Shown here: piece by piece, positions 51,357 through 63,903 of the stretch | Numbering within the stretch: the stretch's first letter is position 1 | How the letters are laid out: every line of letters begins with the position of its first letter | Origin: Ancylonema sp. | Lineage: Eukaryota | Direction: 5' to 3' | Length of the DNA: 64,000 nt | Assembly (NCBI GenBank): GCA_050230475.1 | Contig: JBFLGF010000163.1 | Span: 1 to 64,000 of the forward strand | Notes under the pieces: model-generated | Told to the model about the DNA's origin: nothing | Seen by the model: only the letters and a program-made list of their open reading frames with translations | Database searches by the model: none | Translations under genes and position numbers: made by a program

Positions 51357-54300
51357 ATGCTCCTCTGTTCCATCATTCCGCCCAGCCCGAATCTGGCACA
51401 AGCGGCACCGGCGCTTCTCGAGCCGGCTCAGGGAGTTTTTTTCGGCGTCAGTTTGGACCCGTCAGTGTCACTTCTGAGCTACAGACAGACGGCAGGTGTG
51501 GACCCAGCCATGTTCTCTATAACGGCTAAATTCCCAATCGCCGACTCGGAGATGCTCACTTTGCAGCCGTTTCTCCACCAGGTAATACAGATCTGATTCC
51601 CTTTAAAGCGGCCTCTGACTTCAGTTCATTCGAAGGTTCAGCAGCTCATTGTGCGGGCCCCACTCTCTGCGTAGGCCAGTGATGAAGTCGAGCATATGTA
51701 ACGATACACGTGGAAGTCTGATGTAACCTATATAACATACAATTATGATTTCATTCAATCATACCTCAAGCTAGTGCATGATTCTAATTTCAATATGTGT
51801 ATGTTAACGCCACTTACTAAAATACATATGATAACCACATTTATTTAATCAATGGACAACATGTCGTCCAATGTTGTGCTATTTTTTGTTCTAAAAAGTA
51901 CATACCTGTGGTTCTGAAATGTGTGCGAATTGAAATAGACGTACGGTCGACGATCCCAAGCCGATGAGCTCTTATACCAGTGGTGAATTCTGCTTAAAAT
52001 TGGAGTTTGACTCAATATAGTGACTGTCGCACCAAATTGACTCCGTGAGAGGTGTCGTTATGATGAAAACTGAAGATCAAGATTTACTCCATGATTTTTA
52101 ATCCATGTACTTGATTTTGGGACAGGTGTCCGATCTAGGCGCCATGGTGATGCTTACTCTCGAACCGACAAATGGGCTTGAGTCCGTGACAGATGTCGCG
52201 TGTCTGAAGCTGGTTCAGCTGCTGGGTTTGTACGAGCAGATTGGCATGTCGTTCCTCCTTCGCTTTGGGGAGGAGATGAACGGCAACTGGTAAGATTGCC
52301 ACCTTGCCCTGAATCACTGATGAGTCCATGGATCGACATAGAACTGGAAGAGTGTCACTTTTTAAGCTTGAGGCTCCAGAATTATGTCAAGATTGCTCCG
52401 TTGTATAAATAGAATTAGGCATACCCATCGATGATCGATCAGCCGTAGATCCGACATTACGATACTTTCGAGACATGCCTGAGAATTCCTCGGTGTAAAC
52501 AAACATAAGGGAACGTGTGCAGATCACACACCTTGGCGAGTGTTCGATAGTATAACAGTTTCCACGTATGAATAGGTTCTCAATTTACTGCACACGTTAT
52601 ATTGTCTATCAATGATCAGTACTTCGTCGAATAAAATAAACTAAAAAAAAATATCTGATCACAAAGATCACTGTGTCGACATGAAGTTCAATGATGACTT
52701 TTGTCTTCATGCGCCTAATTCACCTGTTGCGCCTCCCTCAGGTACCCTTGGGGCCAGAAACCGACATCATACAAGCAGAAGTTTGTATTGCTCTCCACAT
52801 ACGTCAAGCAGCACACGTGTCGCTCCGCAATGGTTTGGGCGACAGCCAATGGCGCCTTTTACCCCTACACCGGCGGTCAGTACCAGTGCGTATCCTCCGC
52901 CACATGCTCCGATTTCTCGGTTCTCGACACCAATGGGGACGGAAAGCTGGATATGAAGGACGATATGTACACGCCGTATTATCCGGGCGACGATGCTGTC
53001 GATTGGGTGGCCCAAAGCATATTTCATTTCGGGAATACGCCACCCTGGGGCGCAAATGTGGTACCCGAAGGGCTGGCTTTTTATCGGAAGGTATGAGATC
53101 GTTTCTTCTGGCCTCTGTCCGTATCGTTAATTTTTTGTTAAATAGATAGGCAAGTCACGGGTGTGAAAAAATAGAAATATTATGGCACCAGGCCTCAAGT
53201 ATAACAACGAGGAAAAGGATAGTGCGATAGCAACATGAACATCTTTGAAATGTTCAAAAAAGTCAGGAGTGACACATCTTTGTGATATGTCCATCGTTGT
53301 CGACAAGTTACATGATTGCATTTTTACATATAAATATGAAACCAATTTGATCTTTCCTCGTGTTTTCTATTCTTGGTATTCCGCCTCTAGTTGACTGGAC
53401 AATATGTTGGCGCGGACGGCGACCAATCAGGCATCCCGAGTTTCTACGGCTTATTTTGCGCCGATGGTGTTCATAACAAACCGATGATGGTACCCGAAAC
53501 CGCCGCCTTGTACAACCCCGACTATGTCGGTGGTGCTTCGGAAATCGACATCAAATCCGCTTGGTGGAAACAGGTGATCGGGGGGGGGGGGGGAATCAGC
53601 CGTGGAAATGAATTGACATCGAAATCTCATGTCAGTTTGTATTCATTTTTGAGAATTGAAAATAAATTAAACATTCGACGGCACATCGAAACAAGTCTCA
53701 GCCGCCCAAATATACTGGATGGTAGAATTCGAAATGTTTTTATCATAATAGATTGTAGATAAGGTTCTTCAAGGCGCACATTTGAAGTTGACTGTCTGTT
53801 TAAAAATTACTAGTGAGTTACACTGATAGTAAACACATCGAATATCATAACCAAAATATTTCATTTGGTAGCGAAAGTGATCCATTGTCCACATCGATAT
53901 AAGTCATGACACTCCATTTCGCAAACGAGTGAGGTTGCCTCCCACTCACCCACCCGTTCATGTTGCTTCCAATTGCCAGTTGTTTAATGTCCAAGGCGGT
54001 CTTTCCGTAGCGTCGCATCTCCCGAAAGTGAAATCCATTAGTTGGTTCGACAAGACGGTGGAAGAGGTAAGAAAAAAAACCATAATTGTGATACAAATGA
54101 CCGTTGCGACTCACATATCTATATCAAATTCCCCTGACAGGGGAATTTGATATCGATATGTGAGTCGCAACGGTCATTTGTCGTAGATTTTATCTTCATA
54201 CAAATTGTTGTGGTAGCGCTGATAGCGCACATCACTAAAGATCTAAAAATAATGCGCCAATATTCTTGATTCAGCCGTTTGTCTCTTCTGTAGGCTATAA

Positions 54301-63300: not shown

Positions 63301-63903
63301 AAATATGCGTCTTTGAGTATCCGATTCGAACACGATTTCGATTGGCAGATCGGATTCGCGGTGACCAAAAAGTCGGCGACGGCCCGCAGCGATTGGAAGA
63401 AAGCTTTGGGATGCGTGTGGATGTTCCTCCTTTACTACGTTGCGCTCTTGGGCGGCACCCTTTACAACGTCCTAAAGATAGTTAAGGGCGAGTTGTCCGT
63501 AATGCAAATGGCCGCGCAGGTGAGTTCGTTTTCGCCCCCATTCCATTTGGAGCATTCGATATACCGAAAATCGAACACAATCCGGATCTTTAAAAGTGAC
63601 CCTCGACACATTACTTAAAAAAAAACACAAAAAAACATCAAAACAATGTCTAATCAAATTATCTCACCTCCACACCTCATCAAATCCTCACTAACCCTTC
63701 TTTGCCCCTCCCCCTCTCCCATCCCACCCCACCCTCTCCAGGCGGTTGCCCTTGCGTGGGGGCTGCTCGTGTGTTGGCTCGTGTGGCCCCCGGTGTCCAC
63801 ATTGCTCCCCTTCTTACACGTGGCAGGGGGGAAGGTGGTCTGGGAGGAGGTTCAAGAGGTTCAAAAGAGGCACAGTGCGTCACCCCCTTTGCAACCCATA
63901 TAA
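51357..63903 (+). CDS. Multidomain GH26-type glycoside hydrolase - TM - ankyrin repeat - GT2 cellulose-synthase-like fusion protein (start codon and final exon uncertain; may run past the window)
   Basis: Phase-consistent exons: 51357-51581, 52126-52289, 52742-53090, 53391-53573, 53980-54066, 54514-54594, 55187-55295, 55451-55520, 55651-55830, 56121-56349, 56618-56722, 57177-58085, 58181-58309, 58604-58752, 58970-59126, 59359-59580, 59749-59959, 60043-60149, 62297-62377, 62553-62723, 63008-63127, 63349-63519, 63742->. GH26 motifs: [37 protein letters not shown]. Ankyrin motifs: [44 protein letters not shown]2 motifs: [42 protein letters not shown]. Confidence 0.82.
54093..54181. repeat. Near-perfect 89-nt palindrome/hairpin in an intron of the GH26-GT2 gene
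   Basis: 44-bp arms ACAAATGACCGTTGCGACTCACATATC(T/G)ATATCAAATTCCCCTG, with one mismatch and a 1-nt centre at 54137. Confidence 0.9.
54910..55153. repeat. (TA)n microsatellite in an intron of the GH26-GT2 gene
   Basis: Visible directly. Confidence 0.95.
60448..62278 (+). repeat. Second copy of the GT2 catalytic-core exons and introns (duplicate of 58594-60446), joined at a single N (60447)
   Basis: Exons 60459-60607, 60826-60982, 61203-61424, 61583-61793 and 61877-61983 repeat the five preceding exons with the same lengths and scattered substitutions in exons and introns. Confidence 0.9.

What the first reader, a model, noticed from the sequence alone, without database searches (positions are those of the whole stretch)
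51357..63903. Single-chain GH26 hydrolase - ankyrin - processive GT2 synthase: candidate new polysaccharide synthesis/remodelling machine
Seen in sequence: about 23 exons with canonical splice sites (one GC-AG) join by hand into one stop-free frame of at least about 1,440 aa. The order is signal-peptide-like start ([16 protein letters not shown]), GH26-type TIM barrel, about 150-aa beta-rich linker, one TM helix ([28 protein letters not shown], ~56193-56277), 3-4 ankyrin repeats, a disordered linker, two TM helices, a GT2 core with D,D,D,QxxRW (DDG, DCD, TED, QRLRW), and further TM helices with FxVTxK. Established knowledge: those GT2 motifs define cellulose-synthase-type processive, polymer-translocating beta-glycan synthases. 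GH26 contains retaining beta-mannanases, (1,3;1,4)-beta-glucanases and beta-1,3-xylanases. Synthase/hydrolase coupling is known from bacterial BcsA with BcsZ (separate proteins), NdvB-type GH17-GT2 fusions and fungal alpha-1,3-glucan synthase (GH13-GT5). Land-plant CESA/CSL proteins carry neither a GH domain nor ankyrin repeats. Inference: the TM count puts GH26 on the extracellular/lumenal side where the chain emerges, with ankyrins and the GT core in the cytosol. One polypeptide could therefore synthesise, export and then trim, release or transglycosylate a beta-glycan (mannan, mixed-linkage glucan or a novel polymer) under ankyrin-mediated control. I do not know of this architecture being characterised, but I cannot search to confirm that it is novel.
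Basis: partly seen in the sequence, partly recalled or inferred. Interest (0 to 1): 0.92.

Follow-up and report, generated by a model that had tools for sequence, protein, structure and literature searches.

The report
Algal sugar-chain synthase with built-in cutter
This is a real gene, shared with other green algae related to land plants, in which a cellulose-synthase-type enzyme is fused to a bacterial-type sugar-cutting domain, so that one protein likely builds a cell-wall sugar chain (predicted to be a mixed-linkage glucan) and likely trims or re-attaches it outside the cell.

Summary
Confirmed. 23 exons (21 GT-AG introns, one GC-AG) join into a stop-free 1,456-aa frame: GH26, beta-rich domain, TM helix, four ankyrin repeats, processive GT2. 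The same order stands as uninterrupted reading frames in transcript-type assemblies (P0101, P0260/P0273) and in a Chlorokybus gene model (P0261). Both halves give the same four-taxon tree.

The ANK-GT2 part is most likely the already named, uncharacterised algal CslP family. Chlorophyte members lack GH26. The GH26 is nested among bacterial enzymes that often sit beside, or are fused to, BcsA-like synthases. Its predicted fold is closest to lichenase and 1,3/mixed-linkage xylanases, less to mannanases. My searches found no paper on the fusion; Pfam barely detects this GH26.

- The five GT2-core exons are duplicated around a single N, likely an assembly join.
- The gene probably starts upstream and ends beyond the window.
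- This lineage's GH26 keeps both catalytic Glu but has lost the conserved Tyr (Y224F) and His.

Verdict: new variant of a known kind (synthase plus trimming hydrolase). Product and activity are untested.

The parts
51315..51410 (+).
   Evidence: sequence; homologues P0260 and P0101 begin with hydrophobic leaders. No SignalP run.
51411..54594 (+). GH26 TIM barrel, exons 1-6 (51357-51581, 52126-52289, 52742-53090, 53391-53573, 53980-54066, 54514-54594)
   Evidence: fold of homologue P0260
52270..52275 (+). E124 (His in 82, Gln in 16 of 103 relatives) and E125, predicted acid/base
   Evidence: follows strand beta-4 in the P0260 model
53022..53024 (+). F224, replacing a Tyr kept in 102 of 103 relatives; by alignment the beta-6 Tyr that bonds the nucleophile
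53496..53498 (+). E282, predicted nucleophile
   Evidence: on strand beta-7 in the P0260 model
55187..56193 (+). Beta-rich domain of about 130 aa, exons 7-10 (55187-55295, 55451-55520, 55651-55830, start of 56121-56349); among the sequences held, it matched over its length only the fused algal proteins
56194..56277 (+). First TM helix, followed by basic residues (predicted N-out, C-in)
56326..57410 (+). Four ankyrin repeats across exons 10-12 (56618-56722, 57177-58085)
   Evidence: Pfam Ank_4 E 1.7e-12
57411..58030 (+). Poorly conserved, probably disordered cytosolic linker
58059..58309 (+). Two TM helices before the GT core (end of exon 12; exon 13, 58181-58309)
58604..60149 (+). GT2 core, copy 1, exons 14-18 (DDG, HAKAGN, DCD, TPQ, TED, QRLRW); contiguous with the GH26 half
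60447..60447 (.). Single N at the junction of the two core copies; likely an assembly join
60459..61983 (+). GT2 core, copy 2 (five intact exons; 40 of 846 bases and 8 of 282 residues differ from copy 1)
62297..63903 (+). Exons 19-23: channel TM helices, FAVTKK gating-loop motif; the in-frame stop at 63901-63903 is probably read-through into an intron

Best explanation
The gene encodes one membrane protein in which a GH26 glycoside hydrolase, a beta-rich domain, a membrane helix and four ankyrin repeats precede a processive GT2 synthase; the synthase likely builds and exports a beta-glucan, predicted to be mixed-linkage (1,3;1,4), and the GH26 likely cuts or transfers the chain on the outer side. 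Shown: domain order, intact D,D,D,QxxRW, TED and FxVTxK motifs, both catalytic Glu, conservation of the fusion in other algae. Inferred step 1: a signal peptide and the first helix put GH26 and the beta-rich domain in the lumen or wall, and ankyrins and GT core in the cytosol. Inferred step 2: the core adds UDP-sugar to the chain end and pushes the chain through its TM channel, as BcsA does. Inferred step 3: the tethered GH26 plays the part of the separate hydrolases of bacterial synthase operons (BcsZ, ApsE), releasing or sizing the chain, or grafting it to wall polymers. Inferred step 4 (weakest): the ankyrins bind a regulator or trafficking partner where bacteria use PilZ and c-di-GMP. Inferred origin: a bacterial GH26 was added once to an older green-algal TM-ANK-GT2 (CslP-type) synthase before Chlorokybus diverged. 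My odds on the product: mixed-linkage glucan 45%, cellulose-like 25%, arabinoglucan or 1,3/mixed xylan 20%, mannan 10% or less.
For: Fusion: P0101 (Trinity, complete ORF, 1,725 aa), P0260/P0273 (continuous 1,534-aa ORFs on two contigs of about 6 kb) and P0261 (Chlorokybus model) have the same order. GH26 and GT2 trees give the same branching for these four proteins: GH26 group 97/92 against 26 bacterial rows, GT2 group SH-aLRT 89 inside an ANK-GT2 group at 100. Topology: basic residues lie just after TM1 in all 6 proteins examined; N-glycosylation sequons before/after TM1 are 5/1, 8/1 and 10/3 in the model, P0260 and P0101. Specificity hint: the P0260 model (pLDDT 82) scores Z 26.5 with beta-1,3-xylanase, 26.4 with mixed-linkage xylanase AlXyn26A and 25.8 with lichenase Lic26A, against 22.9 or less for all other entries including every mannanase; Lic26A is also first by Foldseek and by sequence. 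Partnering: 23 of 80 bacterial loci of this GH26 group have a QxxRW GT2 within 8 kb; L001 has a GT2-PilZ gene directly upstream; L068 and P0069 are GT2-GH26 fusions. The S. meliloti aps operon region holds a GT2 and a GH26. Mixed-linkage glucan is reported in charophytes with little known of it (PMC10762512).
Against: No RNA evidence for this organism's own gene. No enzyme of this GH26 group or of CslP has a tested activity that I found; identity to solved GH26 structures is only 16-22%, so specificity is a hint. 57 of 80 bacterial loci have no such GT2 nearby; seven of the positive loci are one syntenic lineage; no background rate was computed. The bacterial GT2s beside these GH26s are not the closest kin of the algal GT2, so the pair was not transferred together. 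Chlorophyte ANK-GT2 proteins lack GH26, so it is not essential to this synthase family. The window's GH26 departs at 11 of 83 conserved columns, including Y224F. Sequons in P0261 run the other way, 4/13. Feng et al. lean to a cellulose synthase role for CslP.
Confidence: 0.6

Rival explanations
1. In this lineage the GH26 is no longer a normal hydrolase: it mainly transglycosylates, or only binds and guides the emerging chain, while relatives keep hydrolysis.
For: Y224F (Tyr in 102 of 103), P164T (Pro in 102 of 103), N165A, G169F and H124E; 11 departures against a median of 3, and 5-6 in the other fused proteins. The close relative P0001 shares T164, A165, F169 and F224, so these are not read errors. 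Longest algal branch in the GH26 tree, 0.82. In a GH26 mannanase the conserved Tyr bonds the nucleophile and the His precedes the acid/base (PMC6381184).
Against: Both catalytic Glu are kept. Gln replaces the His in 16 of 103 relatives, P0260 among them. The equivalence of F224 to that Tyr rests on alignment and strand position, not on measured geometry. That Tyr-to-Phe favours transglycosylation is recalled, not from a call.
Confidence: 0.25
2. It is a BcsA-type cellulose synthase with a built-in editing endoglucanase, like BcsA plus BcsZ in one chain.
For: Best NCBIfam match of the homologues is CelA, E about 1e-73; best solved GT2 match is BcsA. Feng et al. group CslP with oomycete, tunicate, amoeba and red-algal CesAs. 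A related GT2 in Mucochytrium is fused to a GH8, the family of BcsZ as I recall it.
Against: Scores (213-254 bits) are far under the CelA cut-off of 699. The GH26 fold is nearest enzymes that act on 1,3-containing chains. BcsA-like enzymes also make mixed-linkage glucan (RiGT2, PMC10374906).
Confidence: 0.22
3. The GH26 works on an existing wall polymer, not on the synthase's own product: it opens or senses the wall at the site of deposition, or is shed.
For: The outer module is exchangeable: absent in chlorophytes, a different short beta-rich module in chytrid P0238, GH8 in P0201. GH26 and GT2 have separate origins.
Against: Bacterial kin are repeatedly paired with synthases; the fusion has been kept since the split from Chlorokybus.
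Confidence: 0.12
4. Two neighbouring genes, or an assembly chimera, joined only on paper.
For: No transcript of this organism was seen. The window does hold assembly joins (both Ns are flanked by duplications), and the 3' exons may come from another haplotype or paralogue.
Against: No N between GH26 and QRLRW; linker exons match continuous ORFs of homologues.
Confidence: 0.03

Closest known systems
CslP family of GT2 (Feng et al., bioRxiv 10.1101/2023.01.31.526407; Nat Genet PMC11096116)
   Same: Algal, BcsA-like, absent from land plants. Both Zygnema members carry ankyrin plus Glyco_trans_2_3 in the supplement. Chlorokybus has one CslP and one Ank_5;Glyco_trans_2_3 protein, which fits P0261.
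   Different: No GH26 or ankyrin is mentioned in either main text, and the table gives Chlorokybus no GH26. No function has been tested. Whether Zygnema CslP1/2 carry GH26 could not be checked.
Bacterial cellulose synthase BcsA-BcsB with BcsZ
   Same: Processive GT2 motifs and gating loop; an outer-side hydrolase serving the synthase (role of BcsZ from my own knowledge).
   Different: One chain instead of several; GH26 instead of GH8; ankyrins and no PilZ; below the CelA cut-off.
Sinorhizobium meliloti APS system (uxs1-uxe-apsS-apsH1-apsE-apsH2)
   Same: A GT2 and a GH26 in one polysaccharide operon.
   Different: Separate proteins; both only distantly related to the algal domains (profile E 4e-24 and 2e-16). 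Gene names were assigned by position after uxs1, since the record is unannotated.
GH26 lichenase CtLic26A, beta-1,3-xylanase and mixed-linkage xylanase AlXyn26A
   Same: Nearest solved folds; acid/base after beta-4 and nucleophile on beta-7.
   Different: Free catabolic enzymes; 16-22% identity; the window protein lacks the His and Tyr.
CslO: moss arabinoglucan synthase and fungal Tft1 mixed-linkage glucan synthase
   Same: Sister group of CslP according to Feng et al.; mixed-linkage products.
   Different: No sequence of these was on hand, so the relation was not tested here.
Uncharacterised bacterial GT2-GH26 fusions (P0069, L068)
   Same: Same GH26 group fused to a processive GT2.
   Different: Reverse order, with PilZ or STAS; independent origin by both trees.

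Membership tests
Processive GT2 (cellulose-synthase superfamily) | D,D,D,QxxRW with TED and FxVTxK | tested here: met
Processive GT2 (cellulose-synthase superfamily) | TM helices flanking the GT-A core | tested here: met
   Kyte-Doolittle only; alignment
Processive GT2 (cellulose-synthase superfamily) | Polymer synthesis from UDP-sugar | not testable with these tools
   needs an assay
GH26 | (beta/alpha)8 fold nearest to GH26 structures | tested here: met
   homologue P0260 as proxy: ranks 1-14 of the VIA search are all GH26 as titled or recalled
GH26 | Glu after beta-4 and Glu on beta-7 | tested here: met
   E125, E282
GH26 | Conserved His before the acid/base and Tyr on beta-6 | tested here: not met
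   E124, F224 in the window protein; Tyr kept in the other three fused proteins
GH26 | Pfam PF02156 gathering score | tested here: inconclusive
   P0101 22.2 and P0260 20.8 pass 20.2; P0261 16.1 fails; single window exons give no hit
CslP | Falls in the clade of ZcCslP1 (Zci_01910) | not testable with these tools
   no Zygnema sequence on hand; Data S1-12 too large to read
CslP | Ankyrin plus GT2, grouping with the Chlorokybus ANK-GT2 protein | tested here: met
   a proxy taken from the supplement, not the authors' definition
Bacterial BcsA/CelA | TIGR03030 cut-off 699 and PilZ domain | tested here: not met
   homologues score 213-254 bits, no PilZ
Land-plant CESA/CSL | Full-length match to Cellulose_synt (722 positions) with plant-specific regions | tested here: not met
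   only partial matches of 43-78 bits in homologues; nearest solved GT2 are bacterial
Mixed-linkage glucan synthases (BgsA, RiGT2, Tft1, CslF/H) | Makes (1,3;1,4)-beta-glucan | not testable with these tools
   function-defined; the pSymB GT2 taken as BgsA by recalled position does not group with the algal proteins

The most novel reading that the evidence does not exclude
This is the missing mixed-linkage glucan synthase of streptophyte algae, built as a single-chain synthesise-export-and-graft machine from a green-algal ankyrin-GT2 and a horizontally acquired bacterial GH26; in this lineage the GH26 has turned into a transglycosylase that attaches the new chain to the wall.
Probability: 0.15. 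Interest if true: 0.88.

Novelty: new variant of a known kind. Interest (0 to 1): 0.68.

Why it matters
Charophyte walls are reported to hold mixed-linkage glucan about which little is known, and CslP is named but untested. This gives a concrete candidate synthase, with a built-in clue to its product and a clean experiment: synthase with and without an active GH26. It would also show a eukaryote solving chain release the way bacterial operons do, in one polypeptide, by a gene gain that land plants lack (CslP count 0 in the three land plants tabulated). Standard annotation misses the GH26: Pfam scores the Chlorokybus domain under its cut-off.

Tried and rejected
- No genome is held for the window, so paralogues and the true ends could not be sought.
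- RNA runs for 54400-60200: none was listed; no evidence either way.
- Single-sequence fold of the P0101 N-half failed (pLDDT 40) and was not used.
- The beta-rich domain has no assigned fold: pLDDT about 40-70, structure searches were filled by the barrel, and two Atlas searches gave no usable hit. A profile of it matched over its length only the fused proteins.
- Metagenome scan for the fused gene: 10 loci of 597 pattern matches, all distant GT2s without GH26 or ankyrin match.
- Co-transfer of GT2 and GH26 from one bacterial operon: rejected by the GT2 tree (quick tree, midpoint root, 38 of 45 rows; 7 dropped as near-duplicates, insert-laden or partial).
- A two-core 28-exon protein is also stop-free (1,738 aa) but no homologue has two cores; judged an artefact, not excluded.
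- Mannan as product: least supported.
- Weak EF-hand hits in GH26 exon 3 are under cut-off and reflect a DxNxDG loop shared with bacterial kin.
- Upstream first-exon scan gave 10 candidate ATG-donor pairs, none decidable.
- First GH26 tree (76 rows, quick) had the long-branch chytrid P0271 among the algal rows; it, P0270 and the fragment P0001 were left out of the 30-row careful tree.
- Literature: ten searches listed no paper describing the fusion; two searches returned none.
- Earlier scan notes: nothing by sequence, place or first word set.
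Full report
Observation. I rebuilt the gene from the sequence. Twenty-three exons between 51357 and 63903 join into 1,456 residues without an internal stop, with 21 GT-AG introns and one GC-AG intron. Pfam finds ankyrin repeats in exon 12 (E 1.7e-12) and GT2 pieces in exons 16-18, but no GH26 in single exons. Exon 3 finds 99 proteins among 139 candidates, most carrying PF02156, at up to 58% identity for named bacterial proteins.

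Is the fusion real? A search with exon 16 gave 6 hits of 25 candidates, among them P0101, a complete Trinity ORF of 1,725 aa, which matches both halves of the model in order (43% and 54%). A search with its N-half among long proteins gave 14 hits of 6,809 candidates. Three carry ankyrin and GT2: the query itself, P0260 (a continuous 1,534-aa ORF; a second contig holds the cluster member P0273) and P0261, a Chlorokybus atmophyticus gene model. The model aligns to P0260 in one segment from residue 2 to 1439, and every exon contributes. The sources of P0101 and P0260 are unnamed and the window's organism was not identified; that it is a streptophyte alga is inferred from its grouping with Chlorokybus. 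No RNA run was listed for this organism, so its own transcript is unseen.

Exons 14-18 are present twice around a single N at 60447. The exon copies differ at 40 of 846 bases, 29 at third positions, and the introns are 79-93% alike. Copy 1 breaks off just short of the next acceptor. The window's only other N (14015) also sits between two diverged copies, one cut off inside an exon. I read both as joins of overlapping haplotypes or paralogues (that some scaffolders mark such joins with one N is recalled). The 3' exons may therefore belong to the other copy, but GH26 through QRLRW lies on unbroken sequence. The start is probably upstream, and a conserved last TM helix is missing.

The synthase half. 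TM-ANK-GT2 proteins without GH26 occur in chlorophytes: Micractinium, Picochlorum, Nannochloris, Chlorella and Pycnococcus. In a 38-row tree they and the four fused proteins form one group (SH-aLRT 100), with the fused four together (89) and apart from all bacterial GT2s. Feng et al. define CslP as an algal, BcsA-like family absent from land plants and of untested function (bioRxiv text, passages). Their supplement lists ankyrin and GT2 domains for both Zygnema CslPs, and one such protein and one CslP in Chlorokybus. I therefore take the family to be CslP, on circumstantial evidence. Neither main text contains GH26 or ankyrin. Their table gives Chlorokybus no GH26, which fits Pfam scoring P0261 below cut-off. 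Two supplementary PDFs, apparently including the Supplementary Text and Data S1-12, were too large to read and might show the architecture.

The hydrolase half. A 93-row alignment gave a good model of the P0260 domain (mean pLDDT 82). Its nearest solved folds are beta-1,3-xylanase, mixed-linkage xylanase and lichenase Lic26A (Z 26.5, 26.4, 25.8, tied within error), ahead of all mannanases (22.8 or less). Lic26A is first by Foldseek and by profile. The four algal domains are one side of a branch at 97/92 against 26 bacterial rows, with the same internal order as in the GT2 tree. Direction of transfer and gain versus loss depend on the root, which was not determined. Of the best 80 of 589 bacterial loci, 23 have a QxxRW GT2 within 8 kb (19 of them strong matches, by my count from the table), across four phyla; seven are one syntenic lineage and no background was computed. 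Reverse-order bacterial fusions exist. Following an earlier scan note, I found a GT2 and a GH26 just downstream of uxs1 on S. meliloti pSymB, in the order of apsS and apsE.

Active site. Both catalytic Glu are present. The window protein differs at 11 of 83 columns conserved in at least 85% of 103 relatives (median 3; only 5 rows differ more), including Y224F and P164T; the His before the acid/base, held by 82 of 103, is Glu. The close relative P0001 shares the changes in the part it covers. In a GH26 mannanase the equivalent Tyr bonds the nucleophile (PMC6381184, passages). Hydrolysis may thus be reduced or turned to transfer in this lineage; this is inference.

Topology. Hydropathy, basic residues after the first helix in all six proteins examined, and sequon bias in three of four fused proteins support GH26 outside and ankyrins inside. 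No dedicated predictor was run.

Mechanism and verdict. The most likely reading is a one-chain synthase with a tethered trimming or grafting enzyme, making a 1,3-containing beta-glucan. Domain order and conservation are shown; activity, product and the role of the ankyrins are inferred. Synthase-plus-hydrolase coupling is a known kind of system and the GT2 family is probably already named, so this is a new variant, not a new category. The eukaryotic single-chain GH26-ANK-GT2 form was not found in ten library searches (listed under Tried and rejected); most subscription papers are not covered.

Papers seen: keyword passages only for bioRxiv 10.1101/2023.01.31.526407, PMC11096116 (plus supplement rows), PMC9915684 (supplement rows only), PMC6637243, PMC7997180, PMC10762512, PMC6381184, PMC12560781, PMC13438883, PMC7902896, PMC4023592, PMC6566377 and PMC10374906. 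None was read whole. BcsZ, NdvB and the position of bgsA on pSymB are recalled.

Noticed in passing
window 13305-14711: Second duplication (86.6%) abutting the single N at 14015, at the start of a kelch-repeat gene; the first copy is cut off inside an exon and has a 1-base insertion. Both Ns in the window show this pattern, so gene counts from this assembly may be inflated.
   Followed up: partly
P0201 (Mucochytrium quahogii transcripts): A related GT2 with an N-terminal GH8 domain (Pfam 24.5 bits, cut-off 24): a second eukaryotic hydrolase-synthase fusion.
   Followed up: partly
P0238 (Boothiomyces, chytrid, 1,967-base contig): Partial TM-ANK-GT2 protein with a different short N-terminal module that looks lectin-like by eye; no Pfam hit. 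Could be transfer or contamination.
   Followed up: no
L068:5304-9044 and P0069: Bacterial GT2-STAS-GH26 and GT2-PilZ-GH26 fusions.
   Followed up: partly
L063:2637-5285, P0096, P0099: Divergent GH26-like domain fused to an OpgC acyltransferase, next to a GT2 in L063.
   Followed up: no
P0271 (Rhizoclosmatium): Chytrid protein with a C-terminal GH26 of this group after two repeated unannotated domains.
   Followed up: no
window 4556-8111 (+), 24557-29871 (-), 37666-42717 (+), 48012-48692 (+): Ordinary neighbours: diaminopimelate-decarboxylase-like, FAD glycerol-3-phosphate-dehydrogenase-like, DEAH helicase and an intronless F-box gene. None looks wall-related.
   Followed up: no
window 24557-24970 and 25036-25623 (-): Two ORFs both match DAO_C (positions 54-126 and 1-57): consecutive exons of the dehydrogenase.
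   Followed up: no
window 31315-32238 (+): 307-aa open frame without a Pfam match.
   Followed up: no
window 43200-45100 and 54915-55155: Long AT-rich microsatellite arrays; the second lies in intron 6 of the gene.
   Followed up: no
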